From a virus (taxonomy: Duplodnaviria > Heunggongvirae > Uroviricota > Caudoviricetes), in IMG/VR virus record IMGVR_UViG_2529293142_000032, positions 1 to 13,878 of that record: a DNA stretch of 13,878 bases. The stretch is one strand, 5' to 3'. A program made the translations under genes and the position numbers. The first letter of the stretch is position 1, and each line of letters starts with the position of its first letter. Of this stretch, positions 5,186-7,123 are shown one piece after another. The notes beneath the pieces were generated by a model that saw nothing but the letters and a program-made list of their open reading frames with translations, searched no databases and was not told where the DNA came from.

Positions 5186-5440
5186 TCAACACCGTTCATC
5201 AGTCAGCGTGCCGTTGTCACACTTCACGTTAATGCTGACAAGCTCCGCCGCTTCGGCTGCCTCACGACCATTCAGTGTGGCAAAGTTTGCCGCCGCCGTT
5301 GCCATGAATGCGGTTATCAGTTCGGGATGTGCTTTCGCATACCCTTCACCAAACACGCGCTCGGTGACTTTTTTCGCCGTAAGCATCCAGCTTTCAGCAA
5401 GGCCGGAGGCAACAACTTTGTTTTTTCTGTATCTGCTCAT
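5186..5440 (-). CDS. Hypothetical protein (84 aa), paralog of 8651..8896
   Basis: Shares the core GEGYAKAHPELI(T/S)AFM(A/T)TAAANFA with the 81-aa ORF. Its ATG overlaps the stop of the upstream 220-aa gene. Confidence 0.5.
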   Translation of the reverse strand: MSRYRKNKVVASGLAESWMLTAKKVTERVFGEGYAKAHPELITAFMATAAANFATLNGREAAEAAELVSINVKCDNGTLTDERC

Positions 5441-6099
5441 ATTCCTGTACTCATATCCCGAAAATAAACACCTGTATACTGGGGATCTCTGTTTACTTCA
5501 CCGTCAGGTTCTTTCTGATCTTCCGGTGGTGTCCAGGTATATCCCATGTTCTCAAACATCTGTTTCAGTCTCTGGTGGCCTGCGTCAATCTGTGCCTGAT
5601 GCTGATCGTCATAAAGGGCTTTGGCTTTCCTGACCATCTCGTTAAGCGTTAACGGGATAACATAACGCTGTAGTGCCCTTTCCGCGGCACGCATGGAGGC
5701 CATATAGCCGTTATCGTCGTTGAATGATGTTGAACGGGCAAAGGCTGCAAGGTTGCGTTCTTCATCTGAAAAAAGTTCCCAGCCGCTCACCCGTCGTTCC
5801 ATAAAACGATCCGTAAAGCCGGAAAGTTTGCGGGGACTGTTATTGAGTTGTTTGTCTGCATAAGCAAAATTAGCCCCCGACTGAATGAGATGAAAGGCCA
5901 GGACAGGGTTATGCCTTGCCTTCGGATGCGTGGCTATGCAGTGCGCCGGATTTGATTTTCTGACGGATGCCAGCCCGCCTTCATGCTCGTCATCCTGTGC
6001 GACTGAATGGTATTGCCAGCCACTGAGGGGGCCGCCTGAATAAGGCGGCGACGCAATGGCAAAAGGGCTTTGCTCATCTGGGCGCTGGCTGGATATCAT
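5437..6099 (-). CDS. Hypothetical protein (220 aa), tandem paralog of 6116..6784
   Basis: Shares the blocks NPVLAxxL, a FxERxxxxxWEx(F/L)SDE(D/E) segment and NDDxNGY with the upstream gene. Shine-Dalgarno-like AAAGG about 9 nt upstream. Confidence 0.6.
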   Translation of the reverse strand: MISSQRPDEQSPFAIASPPYSGGPLSGWQYHSVAQDDEHEGGLASVRKSNPAHCIATHPKARHNPVLAFHLIQSGANFAYADKQLNNSPRKLSGFTDRFMERRVSGWELFSDEERNLAAFARSTSFNDDNGYMASMRAAERALQRYVIPLTLNEMVRKAKALYDDQHQAQIDAGHQRLKQMFENMGYTWTPPEDQKEPDGEVNRDPQYTGVYFRDMSTGI

Positions 6100-6115
6100 A
6101 TTGCGTACCTTTGCT

Positions 6116-6784
6116 TCATGGCTTCGTAAACCTTGTCTTCATCCAGGTCATCCGGTGAAACCTGTTGTCCGATTTTTTCAGTTCCTGGTGGTATCTGACG
6201 TGTTCGCAGGCAGCTTTTCGGGCATATTCCTCCTGTAGTTTTTTGGCCTCTATACGACGGCTTTCAGGGTTGTTTTCCCTGTAAAGCGCCAGCGAGAGAT
6301 CAAACTCAGACTGTGTTATGTAGTTGTCACGCATTCCATCCAGCACTTTCAGCGCTGCGGTCTTGCCGGAACTATAGCCGTTGCTGTCATCGTTAACCAT
6401 CGAATAAATCATCGCCTGACGGGCTTTGTCTTCATCGCTGACGAACTCCCATTCCGGTGAATTCTCTGTCATGTGCCGTTCAGTGAAAGCGGTAATAGCC
6501 TCGGGTTCTTCGCGTAGTTTTTTGATGATGGCGGATGATTTCAGGTCGGTTGTCCGCAGAAGTCGGAGAGCAAGAACCGGATTACTTTTTGCTTCCTCCG
6601 AAACGGAAACGTTATGTTCCCGTGTGTGTTTTTTGGGTAACGGTTCAGGCTCGTTGCTGCGAAAGAGGGATTCAGCGCCCTTTACTTCGCTGATGTCAGG
6701 AACATCAGGCTGATTAACGGTATCGCCAGAATTGTCCGCACCAACATTTCGGCCCTTGTTGAGATGTAAAAAAGACATTTTCAC
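6116..6784 (-). CDS. Hypothetical protein (222 aa), tandem paralog of 5437..6099
   Basis: AAGGA Shine-Dalgarno 7 nt upstream of a GTG at 6784 (ATG at 6778). Polar, low-complexity N-terminus followed by a domain conserved with the downstream paralog. Confidence 0.6.
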   Translation of the reverse strand: MKMSFLHLNKGRNVGADNSGDTVNQPDVPDISEVKGAESLFRSNEPEPLPKKHTREHNVSVSEEAKSNPVLALRLLRTTDLKSSAIIKKLREEPEAITAFTERHMTENSPEWEFVSDEDKARQAMIYSMVNDDSNGYSSGKTAALKVLDGMRDNYITQSEFDLSLALYRENNPESRRIEAKKLQEEYARKAACEHVRYHQELKKSDNRFHRMTWMKTRFTKP

Positions 6785-6949
6785 GTTGTTTTCCTTTTTG
6801 TCTGTAGCTTCTGCATTATTGCGGTCTGATACTTGCTTGCGGATTGCCGTTGATGGCCCCGATGAGGCGTTTTTTGATTTTTTTCGGATTTTCCCCCGCC
6901 ATCTAGAAGGTGCGAAATTCTCCCGGCCCCCAGATATTGCAACAAACGA

Positions 6950-7123
6950 TTAGGCATTGCGCCCCCCTTTATTCAGCGCCTCATCAATGAGTTTTCTTGC
7001 CACTTCATGAATGGTTGGCCTGATACCGTAGGCAGAACGTGCCGCTTCGTCGTTGCGGATCCGTTCAAGGCGATCTATCTGTTCACGGGCCAGAAGTACG
7101 GCCCTTACGTTTTTTGCTTTCAT
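6950..7123 (-). CDS. Small hypothetical protein (57 aa), possible regulator heading the paralog operon; not in the ORF track
   Basis: Translation MKAKNVRAVLLAREQIDRLERIRNDEAARSAYGIRPTIHEVARKLIDEALNKGGRNA. GGGG-rich Shine-Dalgarno upstream. AT-rich promoter-like region with inverted repeats at 7130-7210. Confidence 0.4.
   Translation of the reverse strand: MKAKNVRAVLLAREQIDRLERIRNDEAARSAYGIRPTIHEVARKLIDEALNKGGRNA

What the first reader, a model, noticed from the sequence alone, without database searches (positions are those of the whole stretch)
5186..7123. Four-gene cargo operon with tandem ~220-aa paralogs of unrecognisable function
A leftward operon runs from a 57-aa putative regulator through two clearly paralogous proteins of 222 and 220 aa to an 84-aa protein whose ATG overlaps the preceding stop. 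The paralogs share the blocks NPVLAxxL, FxERxxxxxWEx(F/L)SDE(D/E) and NDDxNGY, but have divergent, low-complexity N-termini. I cannot place any of the four in a known family. The operon has its own AT-rich promoter with inverted repeats (7130-7210) and is insulated upstream by a bidirectional terminator pair. Tandem diverged paralogs in the accessory part of a satellite-like element are typical of conflict systems such as anti-phage, anti-helper or anti-defence modules. This is the best candidate for an undescribed system in the window.
Basis: partly seen in the sequence, partly recalled or inferred. Interest (0 to 1): 0.7.

Follow-up and report, generated by a model that had tools for sequence, protein, structure and literature searches.

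The report
Satellite copies of helper phage scaffold
The two "unrecognisable" paralogs are a conserved core module of a phage-satellite island and look like diverged copies of the helper phage's head-scaffolding protein. They therefore most likely hijack or sabotage helper capsid assembly rather than being a cargo defence system; this is untested.

Summary
The leftward operon, the paralogy (BLASTP E=3e-13), the upstream inverted repeats and the terminator pair are real. The anatomy needs correction. The "222-aa" ORF is a fragment of a ~287-aa gene (A, 6096-6957). In this window two 1-base deletions in poly-A runs break it, and the missed 58-aa ORF is its N-terminus.

The window is a PICI-like E. 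coli satellite with an AlpA-like HTH, D5-type primase, PerC, TerS-like genes and a cos-like site.

The unit 57-aa gene, A, B is not variable cargo. It keeps the same position, between the variable region after the primase and the TerS-like packaging genes, in 3 E. coli islands and in all 12 related loci from other Enterobacterales that retain flanking sequence. A/B have no Pfam, NCBIfam or PADLOC hit and no structural match.

Reciprocal remote searches link them to the lambda Nu3-type scaffolding protein (phrog_6382) of phiNP/BZS1-like phages. These same phages match the island's TerS-like proteins, its cos-like element and the tape-measure gene carried by relatives.

Best explanation (about 0.5): helper-derived scaffold mimics that enter helper procapsids and redirect or block capsid assembly, a CpmA/CpmB-like role. 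This is a new variant of a known kind, with no experimental test. This window's copy may be inactive.

The parts
7255..7316 (.). Bidirectional terminator pair. It ends the upstream PerC/ProQ/SSB transcription unit and insulates the operon.
   Evidence: + strand stem 7255-7276 followed by a T run; - strand stem 7316-7292 followed by a T run.
7129..7224 (-). AT-rich control region with the operator-like palindrome TGTTTCA...TGAAACA and ATTGCAAT-type boxes. No LexA box is present here.
   Evidence: I3: 7147-7167/7175-7195, and I1. ATTGCAAT-like boxes recur upstream of the orthologous gene in most loci of other genera. LexA-like CTG-N10-CAG boxes are present there but absent in E. coli.
6950..7123 (-). 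57-aa small basic protein, the first gene of the operon. It is a putative ribbon-helix-helix-like autoregulator; this is inferred from the sequence pattern only.
   Evidence: 12 orthologs with 7 invariant columns (M1, L10, E26, S30, G33, P36, R43); 11 of the 12 are directly upstream of A. No Pfam or PDB sequence hit. dN/dS 0.10.
6096..6957 (-). Gene A, the long paralog (287 aa when repaired). It has a disordered N-terminal ~100 aa carrying the motifs ISHLLDGGG and SFLHL, followed by an all-alpha core. In this window it is split into a 58-aa ORF (6781-6957) and a 222-aa ORF (6116-6784).
   Evidence: AF2 model: core residues 105-290 at pLDDT about 84-97, mostly around 96. Similar to the Nu3-type scaffold.
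6878..6884 (-). Poly-A tract of 7 A where 8 are needed for the full-length reading frame. This is the first frameshift site in gene A. Its length varies between islands (7, 8 or 9 A).
   Evidence: window and L002 have 7, L003 has 8, L001 has 9. (most database homologs are contiguous, 277-292 aa).
6173..6178 (-). Poly-A tract of 6 A where L001, L002 and L003 all have 7. This is the second frameshift and is unique to this window. It replaces the true C-terminus (...KKIGQQVSPDDLDEDKVYEAMKQRYAI).
5437..6099 (-). Gene B, the short paralog (220 aa, intact). The N-terminal 41 aa and the C-terminal ~25 aa are disordered; the core is all-alpha.
   Evidence: AF2 model: residues 42-190 at pLDDT about 75-92. 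dN/dS 0.14-0.25.
5186..5440 (-). 84-aa phrog_1231 protein, translationally coupled to B. It is specific to the E. coli lineage and occupies the slot where relatives carry a tape-measure or tail-fibre gene.
5090..5155 (.). cos-like element. It is shared with the sequence immediately upstream of terS in an E. coli prophage of the putative helper type. E. coli islands carry two copies.
   Evidence: (H8-H12).
4981..5090 (.). GTGTAAA repeats (three direct, one inverted) next to the cos-like element. They may be TerS recognition repeats.
   Evidence: Sequence printed; read directly from the sequence, function not tested.
4426..4836 (-). Homolog of the TerS C-terminal domain that lacks the HTH. Annotated as 118 aa in relatives; 136 aa from the first start codon in the window.
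   Evidence: phrog_57, profile positions 88-171. (phmmer against phiNP TerS 7e-11, against C8 TerS 5e-8).
3897..4429 (-). TerS-like gene with an N-terminal HTH, 177 aa in relatives. In this window a 1-base deletion near 4353 splits it into 62-aa and 107-aa ORFs.
   Evidence: (BLASTP 7e-14 against the E. coli L37 prophage TerS).

Best explanation
The window is a PICI-like phage satellite of E. coli. Its helper is probably a temperate myovirus with a lambda-type head (S49 protease, Nu3-like scaffold, D, E) and a Mu-type contractile tail, as in phiNP, BZS1 and the E. coli C8 and L37 prophages.

The operon 57-aa gene, A, B (, 84-aa gene) heads the satellite's helper-exploitation block. That block continues with a cos-like site and two TerS-derived genes.

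A and B are tandem paralogs that descend from, or share a module with, the helper's Nu3-type scaffolding protein. A keeps the scaffold's N-terminal motif (F/I-[SA]-H-L-L-G). Both keep the helical Nu3 segment (R..I..S..A..NP.LA..L...T..S..I). Both add a satellite-specific all-alpha domain.

Proposed mechanism (inferred, not shown):
1. During helper growth, A and B are made.
2. They use the scaffold-like segments to enter assembling helper procapsids in competition with the cognate scaffold.
3. Probably as an A-B hetero-oligomer, they change shell geometry, or poison normal assembly.
4. Capsids then suit the ~17-kb satellite rather than the ~45-kb helper. This is the role CpmA/CpmB play in SaPI1.

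The 57-aa protein is a likely autoregulator acting on the upstream palindrome. In other genera the same operon carries a LexA-type box, which would tie it to SOS induction.

In this window gene A and the TerS-like gene carry 1-base deletions. This copy is therefore either decaying or mis-sequenced at homopolymers.
For: Shown:
- Satellite context. D5-type primase, SSB and ProQ. AlpA-like HTH_17 and PerC. Integrase and att-type flanks in relatives. A matching published PICI architecture (PMC11773190).
- Conserved unit. The order 57-aa gene, A, B, then a TerS-like gene downstream, holds in the 3 E. coli islands and, where the contig retains the flanks, in the 12 longer loci of other genera. In Morganella, B survives only as a fusion.
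- Small family. Only 31 representatives among 1.84 billion proteins; every homolog or locus that carries an organism name is from Enterobacterales.
- Link to the scaffold, forward direction. The A-family profile searched against 1,600 six-frame ORFs of phiNP and BZS1 gives as top hit the gene between the S49 protease and D/E, E=3e-4. The E. coli L37 ortholog scores 1e-4.
- Shuffle control. With profile A5, 0 of 1000 global or local-block shuffles reach the real score; profiles A3 and A2 are weaker, with 0-10 of 1000.
- hhalign gives P=2-4e-4 over 39-47 columns.
- BLASTP of A against the L37 scaffold gives E=0.007.
- Link to the scaffold, reverse direction. Scanning 46 family members against all 38,880 PHROGs gives phrog_6382 as the best family (E=8.3e-4, 5 members). 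That is the family of those phage genes.
- The phage gene is Nu3-like: hhalign against lambda Nu3 P=2.7e-4 over 75 columns, and PHROG hits to the C-terminal parts of protease-scaffold fusions.
- Same helper lineage by independent genes:
  - The TerS-like protein hits only phiNP and BZS1 in the phage collection, and the L37 and C8 prophage TerS at 7e-14 and 5e-12.
  - A second TerS-derived gene is present.
  - The cos-like element is 92-96% identical to sequence 57 bp upstream of C8 terS.
  - The tape-measure gene of relatives is 36-46% identical to the BZS1 and phiNP tape-measure proteins.
- phiNP-like heads occur in E. coli: 69-169 of 5426 genomes.
- LexA-like boxes lie upstream of the operon in at least 7 non-E. 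coli loci. SaPI operon I is LexA-controlled (Ubeda 2007, as listed in the reference list of PMC6739421).

Inferred:
- Island size of ~17 kb against a 45-kb helper gives a ratio of about 0.38. By geometric estimate this is close to a T=4/T=7 capacity ratio.
- Precedent: CpmB shares a motif with the helper scaffold and always comes paired with CpmA (PMC6893505).
Against: - The homology is remote and local: about 40-47 columns plus a short N-terminal motif. hhalign probability is only 35-46%.
- The A profile against lambda Nu3 directly is not significant (P=0.25).
- An apparent C-terminal resemblance between A and the scaffold failed a shuffle test. The region most often used by scaffolds to bind coat protein is therefore not demonstrably shared.
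- E. coli B lacks the N-terminal motif.
- None of the three complete E. coli genomes carrying the operon appears among the 60 best genomes with a phiNP-like head module. No resident helper has been shown.
- In 7 relatives A-B sit directly upstream of a tape-measure gene, in several with coupled or overlapping stop and start codons. That could equally suggest a tail-related role.
- No experiment of any kind exists.
Confidence: 0.5

Rival explanations
1. Tail-assembly role. A and B act as adaptors or chaperones for the tape-measure protein. That protein is satellite-encoded in many relatives and would be the helper's in E. coli. A and B would modify or block helper tail assembly.
For: - In L005, L011, L013, L014, L017, L018 and L020 a 600-635-aa tape-measure homolog follows A-B, in several with coupled or overlapping stop and start codons.
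- Hafnia has a tail-fibre-like gene in the same slot.
- Two proteins sharing one domain recall the G/GT chaperone pair (my own knowledge).
- Tail-assembly interference by PICI genes has a precedent in Tai (PMC11364771).
Against: - A-B are conserved where there is no tape-measure gene: E. coli, Xenorhabdus, Rahnella.
- L017 carries its own bona fide Phage_TAC_7 chaperone between B and the tape-measure gene.
- The only detectable similarity is to a head scaffolding protein, not to any tail protein.
Confidence: 0.13
2. Capsid-targeted passenger proteins. A and B use the scaffold-like N-terminal motif and Nu3 segment only as an address, so that they are packed inside the head. They are then injected with the satellite DNA and act in the next cell, for example as anti-defence proteins. 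This would resemble T4 internal proteins or P1 Dar.
For: - The shared parts are exactly the kind of short targeting segments such proteins use.
- The N-termini are long, disordered and variable.
- The E. coli variants differ most at the N-termini.
- The comparison with T4 internal proteins and P1 Dar rests on my own knowledge.
Against: - No enzymatic or inhibitor domain is detectable.
- The core is highly conserved across genera, unlike arms-race anti-defence proteins.
- No protease-site evidence was obtained.
Confidence: 0.12
3. The operon is a self-contained, swappable anti-phage or anti-helper defence cassette (cargo), unrelated to virion assembly. The paralogs would be sensor and effector, under a small repressor.
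For: - PICIs do carry defence systems, including next to the primase (PMC11364771).
- A small regulator, tandem paralogs, a dedicated promoter and a dedicated terminator are all present.
- The family is absent from curated databases.
Against: - The unit is not variable. It is fixed in position across genera, while the true variable slot lies between the primase and the 57-aa gene. That slot holds SSB/ProQ/PerC here and DUF4365/DUF2971 in L011.
- No PADLOC hit.
- No nuclease, NTPase, TIR, Sir2 or membrane effector features.
- The family is never found outside this satellite context in the loci recovered.
Confidence: 0.1
4. In this particular window the module is a dead remnant. Gene A carries two frameshifts and the TerS-like gene carries one. 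An IS256-family element has also replaced the island's end. On this reading nothing here functions, whatever the family does elsewhere.
For: - Three 1-base deletions relative to three related islands.
- Transposase_mut at 1-1209, and loss of the second cos-like copy and the island's distal end.
Against: - All three lesions are single-base losses in A runs, which is the signature of homopolymer sequencing error.
- The 7-A allele is also present in L002.
- The rest of the operon is 93-99.8% identical to intact relatives, with dN/dS below 0.45.
Confidence: 0.35

Closest known systems
Lambda Nu3-type scaffolding proteins (phrog_6382: phiNP_023, BZS1_p06, E. coli L37 and C8 prophage orthologs; lambda Nu3)
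   Same: - The N-terminal motif F/I-[SA]-H-L-L-G, followed by a disordered charged linker.
- A helical segment R..I..S..A..NP.LA..L...T..S..I.
- The match is reciprocal, best against best.
- It comes from the same phage lineage as the island's TerS-like genes and cos-like site.
   Different: - A and B carry an extra ~100-150-aa conserved helical domain (W-E, D.NGY) that the scaffolds lack.
- The scaffold's C-terminal region is not detectably shared.
- A and B are encoded in a satellite with no protease, portal or capsid genes, and as a tandem pair.
SaPI1 CpmA/CpmB (capsid size redirection; PMC6893505)
   Same: - A satellite-encoded, alpha-helical gene pair that is always found together.
- It sits in the morphogenesis/packaging operon next to terS.
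- One member shares a short motif with the helper's scaffold and competes for its site.
- That operon is SOS/LexA-controlled in SaPIs. LexA-like boxes are present in most non-E. coli relatives here.
   Different: - CpmB is 72 aa and shares a C-terminal motif. A and B are 160-300 aa and share N-terminal and internal segments.
- CpmA and CpmB are not paralogs of each other.
- The host is Gram-negative and the helper is a lambda-head/Mu-tail phage.
P4 Sid/Psu and PLE TcaP (external size-determining scaffolds)
   Same: - Satellite-encoded helical proteins that remodel helper capsids.
- Sid and Psu are adjacent and related to each other (my own knowledge).
   Different: - These are external cages with no similarity to the helper's internal scaffold.
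- No structural match here.
- No Delta/Ogr-type control.
SaPIbov5 Ccm and E. coli PICI Rpp (helper-derived hijack proteins; PMC8569155, PMC6739421)
   Same: - The same principle: a satellite protein evolved from a helper virion or packaging protein. Ccm derives from the capsid protein and Rpp from TerS. It subverts the helper by mixing with the original.
- This island also carries TerS-derived genes and two cos-like sites, as EcCICFT073 does.
   Different: - The parent protein here would be the scaffold, which has not been reported for Gram-negative PICIs in the papers read.
- No Rpp sequence relative was detected.

Membership tests
Nu3-type phage scaffolding proteins (phrog_6382 / lambda Nu3) | Detectable sequence homology to family members | tested here: met
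   Local and remote only. hmmsearch 1e-4 to 3e-4 in a database of 1,600 ORFs, with 0 of 1000 shuffles reaching the score for profile A5. hhalign P=2-4e-4. phrog_6382 is the best of 38,880 PHROGs, E=8.3e-4. Directly against lambda Nu3 the match is not significant.
Nu3-type phage scaffolding proteins (phrog_6382 / lambda Nu3) | Conserved C-terminal region (SLD.RM...GK.ALV..MT.LY) of the scaffold | tested here: not met
   A profile of the A-family C-termini against the scaffolds scores no better than shuffles.
Nu3-type phage scaffolding proteins (phrog_6382 / lambda Nu3) | Gene lies in a head module between the S49 prohead protease and the decoration/major capsid genes | tested here: not met
   In the phages the gene does lie there. 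In the satellites A and B lie between a small regulator and tail or TerS-like genes, and no protease, portal or capsid genes are present.
Nu3-type phage scaffolding proteins (phrog_6382 / lambda Nu3) | Present inside procapsids and needed for shell assembly | not testable with these tools
   Needs procapsid purification and mass spectrometry, or cryo-EM.
SaPI CpmA/CpmB-type capsid redirection module | Sequence or fold similarity to CpmB or CpmA | tested here: not met
   [not shown]
SaPI CpmA/CpmB-type capsid redirection module | Shares a binding motif with the helper's own scaffolding protein | tested here: inconclusive
   Shared N-terminal and Nu3-segment motifs are shown. Whether they are binding motifs is unknown.
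SaPI CpmA/CpmB-type capsid redirection module | Produces small capsids commensurate with the satellite genome | not testable with these tools
   Only the size ratio is available: island ~17 kb against a 44.9-kb helper-type phage.
PICI-type phage satellite (the host element) | Integrase, AlpA-type regulator, primase/replicase and packaging genes, but no structural or lysis genes, in ~10-20 kb | tested here: met
   HTH_17 AlpA-like. D5-type primase. TerS-like genes. Integrase just beyond the window in 98-99.5% identical EC12. No capsid or lysis genes.
PICI-type phage satellite (the host element) | Carries the helper's cos/pac recognition site | tested here: met
   A 53-65-bp element is 92-96% identical to sequence 57 bp upstream of terS in the C8 prophage. 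Its function as cos was not tested.
PICI-type phage satellite (the host element) | Induced and transferred at high frequency by a helper phage | not testable with these tools
No phiNP-like prophage was seen in the three host genomes among the top 60 hits.
Known anti-phage defence systems (PADLOC-DB v2) | Match to any defence-system protein model | tested here: not met
   No hit for A, B, the 57-aa, 58-aa or 84-aa proteins.
Ribbon-helix-helix (CopG/Arc/MetJ) regulators (57-aa protein) | Match to an RHH family model or solved RHH structure | tested here: not met
   No Pfam, NCBIfam or PHROG hit. A profile of 12 orthologs finds no RHH in the PDB. The strand-helix-G-x-(S/T)-helix pattern is my own reading of the alignment.
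Tai (tail assembly inhibition) PICI immunity genes | Homology to Tai proteins; single gene next to pri | not tested
Position and gene number differ from the description in PMC11364771.

The most novel reading that the evidence does not exclude
A and B define a new class of satellite capsid-remodelling proteins. They would be chimeras of the helper's Nu3-type internal scaffold (address segments) with a satellite-specific helical domain. Working as a heteromeric pair, they would force a lambda-type T=7 head into a satellite-sized shell. They would belong to a previously undescribed Enterobacterales satellite lineage that in other genera also carries its own tape-measure, tail chaperone and tail-fibre genes. 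That lineage would therefore re-engineer both the head and the tail of a myovirus helper.
Probability: 0.3. Interest if true: 0.75.

Novelty: new variant of a known kind. Interest (0 to 1): 0.58.

Why it matters
In the papers read, how Gram-negative PICIs remodel helper capsids is described as undetermined: PmCI172 makes small capsids by an unknown mechanism (PMC6893505).

If A and B are scaffold-derived remodelling factors, they would:
- give a concrete, testable candidate pair for capsid remodelling in Gram-negative PICIs;
- add a third parent protein, the scaffold, to the list of helper proteins that satellites have copied and turned against the helper (capsid protein gave Ccm, TerS gave Rpp);
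- define a helper-satellite system (lambda-head/Mu-tail prophages with this island family) spread across Enterobacterales, including plant and insect pathogens.

The relatives that carry tape-measure and tail genes raise a separate question. Can satellites also customise tails, and so influence host range or evade entry-blocking defences?

In practical terms, the family (about 31 representatives among 1.84 billion proteins, no Pfam entry) could be added to satellite-finding marker sets.

Tried and rejected
- **Curated libraries.** Pfam, NCBIfam, PADLOC and PHROG scans of single window proteins found nothing for A, B or the 57-aa protein.
- **PDB by sequence.** Searches with profiles of A/B, the 57-aa family and the scaffold family found nothing.
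- **A tblastn.** A against 50,697 phage records gave no match.
- **81-aa phrog_1231 tblastn.** The same search with the 81-aa protein gave no match.
- **Tail assembly chaperone idea.** Weakened because L017 has its own Phage_TAC_7 gene and because A-B persist without a tape-measure gene.
- **C-terminal resemblance.** A resemblance seen by eye between the A-family 'LPGD..R.NGK...LKSQ' and the scaffold 'LG.DG.K...GK.ALVSKMT' was rejected by the shuffle test.
- **Rpp or known-structure TerS relatives.** Searches with the downstream genes found none.
- **LexA control in E. coli.** No CTG-N10-CAG box is present in the window or in L001 and L002; L003 has one only far from the operon.
- **Co-residence of helper and satellite.** The three satellite-bearing complete genomes are not among the top 60 carrying a phiNP-like head module.
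- **The search for related loci with the broad alignment A2.** It failed because no stretch was conserved enough. Subfamily alignment A3 worked.

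
Full report
**1. What is in the sequence**

The last start overlaps the preceding stop as ATGA.

The two large proteins are true paralogs, with BLASTP E=3e-13 and 32% identity over 98 residues.

The upstream inverted repeat (7147-7167/7175-7195) and the bidirectional terminator pair (7255-7276 on +, 7316-7292 on -) are confirmed.

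Between-island dN/dS of 0.10-0.44 shows purifying selection on all four genes.

**2. Correction of the anatomy**

The 222-aa ORF is a fragment. Most database homologs are 277-292 aa and begin MPNRLLQYLGAGRISHLL. That start is the window ATG at 6957, which overlaps the stop of the 57-aa gene.

An alignment with three related E. coli islands shows two differences:
- A poly-A tract at 6878-6884 has 7 A in the window and L002, 8 in L003 and in most homologs, and 9 in L001.
- A second tract at 6173-6178 has 6 A only in this window, against 7 in the other three.

Restoring one A at each site gives a 287-aa protein ending ...DEDKVYEAMKQRYAI, whose stop overlaps the ATG of B. It follows that:
- the last 20 residues of the '222-aa' protein are out of frame.

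The downstream TerS-like gene carries a third 1-base deletion in an A run, near 4353. Three homopolymer deletions within 3 kb suggest either sequencing error or early decay. I cannot tell which.

**3. Context**

The window is a PICI-like satellite island. It contains:
- an AlpA-like HTH_17 gene and two PerC genes;
- a D5-type primase, SSB and ProQ/FinO;
- an IS256-family transposase at 1-1209.

Only 3 of 5,426 complete E. coli genomes carry the operon. In those three genomes the islands are about 17 kb. They sit at three different chromosomal sites, with different integrases and either a primase or a RepA helicase, yet the operon is the same. The architecture matches published E. coli PICIs such as EcCIMP1 (PMC11773190).

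**4. The family and its synteny**

A and B have no Pfam, NCBIfam or PADLOC hit, and no PHROG hit in single-protein scans.

A profile search of 1.84 billion representative proteins finds only 31 relatives. Every homolog or locus that carries an organism name comes from Enterobacterales: E. coli, Raoultella, Pectobacterium, Xenorhabdus, Photorhabdus, Providencia, Morganella, Hafnia, Rahnella, Serratia and Brenneria.

The relatives form a long A-like subfamily and a short B-like subfamily. Both usually carry an N-terminal F-x-H-L motif.

In every locus with enough flanking DNA the order is: 57-aa gene, A, B, then further downstream a TerS-like HTH protein. The slot after B varies:
- Seven loci hold a 600-635-aa tape-measure homolog (phrog_2276, E=1.5e-117).
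- L017 additionally holds a Phage_TAC_7 chaperone and a minor tail protein.
- Hafnia holds a tail-fibre-like gene.
- Xenorhabdus holds nothing.
- E. coli holds the 84-aa phrog_1231 gene, a 54%-identical duplicate of the island's own 81-aa gene.

The truly variable cargo slot lies between the primase and the 57-aa gene. It holds SSB/ProQ/PerC here and DUF4365/DUF2971 proteins in Raoultella. This is the position reported as a PICI defence hotspot (PMC11364771).

The unit is therefore core, not cargo.

**5. Which phage the island parasitises**

Three independent features point to one phage lineage. It has a lambda-type head (TerS, TerL, W, portal, S49 protease, a ~200-aa protein, D, E) and a Mu-type contractile tail.

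- *Tape-measure gene.* The best phage matches of the relatives' tape-measure protein are Serratia phage BZS1 and Citrobacter phage phiNP, at 36-46% identity.
- *TerS-like protein.* It hits only those two phages in 50,697 phage records. It matches the TerS of E. coli prophages of the same type at 7e-14 (L37) and 5e-12 (C8). A second island gene (4426-4836) is a TerS C-terminal-domain homolog.
- *cos-like element.* A ~65-bp element at 5090-5155 is present twice per E. coli island. It is 92-96% identical over 53 bp to sequence lying 57 bp upstream of terS in the C8 prophage. This is the expected place of cos. EcCICFT073 likewise has two cos sites (PMC6739421).

phiNP-like head modules occur in 69-169 of 5,426 E. 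coli genomes. They do not occur, among the 60 best hits, in the three satellite-bearing strains.

**6. What A and B resemble**

AlphaFold models give confident all-alpha cores and disordered termini:
- A: residues 105-290 at pLDDT about 84-97, mostly around 96.
- B: residues 42-190 at pLDDT about 75-92.

Neither model has a meaningful structural neighbour in the PDB or in BFVD.

Searching the A/B profiles against all six-frame ORFs of phiNP and BZS1 gave one hit above noise. It is the ~200-aa gene between the S49 protease and the decoration/capsid genes (E=3e-4). The E. coli L37 ortholog scores 1e-4. Further support:
- With profile A5, none of 1,000 global or 20-residue-block shuffles reaches the real score; profiles A3 and A2 are weaker, with 0-10 of 1,000.
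- hhalign gives P=2-4e-4 over 39-47 columns, with probability 35-46%.
- BLASTP of E. coli A against the L37 protein gives E=0.007.
- In the reverse direction, 46 family members were scanned against all 38,880 PHROGs. The best family overall was phrog_6382 (E=8.3e-4, 5 members). That is exactly the family of those phage genes.

The phage protein is a Nu3 homolog. hhalign against lambda Nu3 gives P=2.7e-4 over 75 columns. It also matches the C-terminal parts of PHROG families annotated as head maturation protease.

The shared features are:
- an N-terminal motif: phage MAK..FSFAHLLG.G; A-like MAKYSLRELLGL, RLAHLLGLS and, in E. coli, RISHLLDGGG;
- a disordered charged linker;
- the helical segment R..I..S..A..NP.LA..L...T..S..I.

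A resemblance of the C-termini that I saw by eye failed the shuffle test. The A profile against lambda Nu3 directly is not significant.

I therefore regard local homology to the helper's scaffold as likely but not proven.

**7. Mechanism proposed**

*Shown:* a satellite island carries, in one block, a regulator gene, two scaffold-like paralogs, a cos-like site and two TerS-derived genes. All of these trace to one helper lineage.

*Inferred:*
1. A and B use the scaffold-like segments to enter helper procapsids in competition with the cognate scaffold.
2. Through their extra helical domain, probably as a hetero-oligomer, they alter or block shell assembly.
3. Capsids then fit the ~17-kb island rather than the ~45-kb phage. 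The ratio of 0.38 is close to a T=4/T=7 capacity ratio by my own geometric estimate.

This is the logic of SaPI1 CpmB. CpmB shares a motif with the helper scaffold, binds the same site on the capsid protein, and always comes with CpmA (PMC6893505).

On regulation:
- The 57-aa protein has a strand-helix-G-x-S-helix pattern that suggests a ribbon-helix-helix repressor. No library supports this.
- ATTGCAAT-like boxes recur upstream of it across genera.
- In at least 7 non-E. coli loci a LexA-type CTG-N10-CAG box lies just before the gene. This recalls the LexA-controlled SaPI operon I (Ubeda 2007, as listed in the reference list of PMC6739421).
- The E. coli islands lack that box.
- No minus-strand terminator was found in the scanned region below the 84-aa gene (4700-5186), so the operon may read through into the TerS-like genes.

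**8. Rivals**

- *Tail role.* This is suggested by the coupling to tape-measure genes. It is weakened by A-B persisting without a tape-measure gene, and by L017 having its own chaperone.
- *Capsid-targeted passenger proteins.* On this reading A and B are delivered to the next host as anti-defence factors. It is compatible with the address-like shared segments, but no effector domain is visible.
It conflicts with the fixed synteny and the absence of any PADLOC hit.
- *Dead copy.* Independently of the above, this window's copy may be non-functional.

**9. Novelty and verdict**

The family is undescribed in every library searched. I found no paper describing a scaffold-derived module in Gram-negative PICIs among those searched. 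The kind of system is known, however: a satellite protein that mimics a helper morphogenetic protein. I therefore class this as a new variant of a known kind.

Confidence in the proposed mechanism is about 0.5. Interest is 0.58. It would rise if small capsids or procapsid incorporation were shown.

Noticed in passing
window 6878-6884 (minus strand GAAAAAAAT); L001-L003 equivalents: The poly-A tract in gene A varies in length: 7 A in the window and L002, 8 in L003 and most database homologs, 9 in L001. This switches the N-terminal 58 codons between fused and separate. A_AAA_AAT resembles a -1 slippery heptamer. Possible explanations are programmed or transcriptional slippage, phase variation, decay, or homopolymer sequencing error.
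   Followed up: partly
window 5090-5155; second copies at L001 8706-8782, L002 8950-9014, L003 9074-9138; L026 9001-9053: A ~65-bp element occurs twice per E. coli island. It is 92-96% identical over 53 bp to sequence 57 bp upstream of terS in an E. coli C8 prophage, so it is a likely cos site. The window has lost the second copy to the IS insertion.
   Followed up: partly
window 4981-5090: GTGTAAA repeats lie between the 84-aa gene and the TerS-like genes. Three are direct, including two 18-bp copies of AAAGTGTAAATCAAATTC 78 bp apart, and one is inverted. They may be terminase recognition repeats. TGTAAAC repeats also occur near the operon promoter in Hafnia, Rahnella and MAG loci.
   Followed up: no
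window 4426-4836 and 3897-4429: There are two TerS-derived genes in tandem. One has only the C-terminal domain and no HTH. The other is full length (177 aa in relatives) but is split here by a 1-base deletion near 4353. The domain-only copy could act like Ppi or Rpp on the helper terminase.
   Followed up: partly
L005, L011, L013, L014, L017, L018, L020 (about 11,100-13,100 in each); L012 11166-12029: Related satellites in Raoultella, Pectobacterium, a MAG and IMG/VR contigs carry a 600-635-aa tape-measure gene right after B. L017 also has a Phage_TAC_7 chaperone, a phrog_1924 minor tail protein and a tail-fibre-assembly-like gene. Hafnia has a tail-fibre-like gene instead. Tape-measure and tail-chaperone genes were not among the satellite genes described in the papers read here.
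   Followed up: partly
L005 9709, L007 6054, L010 2282, L011 9565, L013 9660, L018 9707, L019 8112 (also L017, about 25 bp upstream of its 57-aa gene): LexA-type boxes (CTG-N10-CAG with an AT-rich spacer) lie about 15-25 bp upstream of the 57-aa gene in most non-E. coli loci. The E. coli islands have none there; they carry a TGTTTCA...TGAAACA palindrome instead.
   Followed up: partly
window 8651-8896 and 5186-5440: Two phrog_1231 paralogs (81 and 84 aa, 54% identical) sit in one island. One follows the primase and the other is coupled to B. Their function is unknown, and tblastn finds no match in the phage collection.
   Followed up: partly
window 1-1209 and 1382-1678 / 7362-7676: An IS256-family transposase (PF00872, E=9e-120) sits at the left edge, where related islands continue with BRO/Ant/KilA-N remnants. 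There are also two PerC-family paralogs in one island. A PICI PerC homolog has been reported to silence the LEE pathogenicity island (PMC11773190).
   Followed up: no
L011 6056-9282; window 7362-8896: The region between the primase and the 57-aa gene differs completely between islands. It holds DUF4365 with a 376-aa partner and a DUF2971 protein in Raoultella, and phrog_1231/SSB/ProQ/PerC in E. coli. This fits the PICI defence hotspot next to pri described for Tai.
   Followed up: no
L009 10643-11143 (Morganella): A 166-aa ORF fuses a B-like N-terminus (MKPDTYSFAHL...) to the C-terminal ~120 residues of the tape-measure protein. This is a deletion scar showing that the B-tape-measure arrangement was ancestral there.
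   Followed up: no
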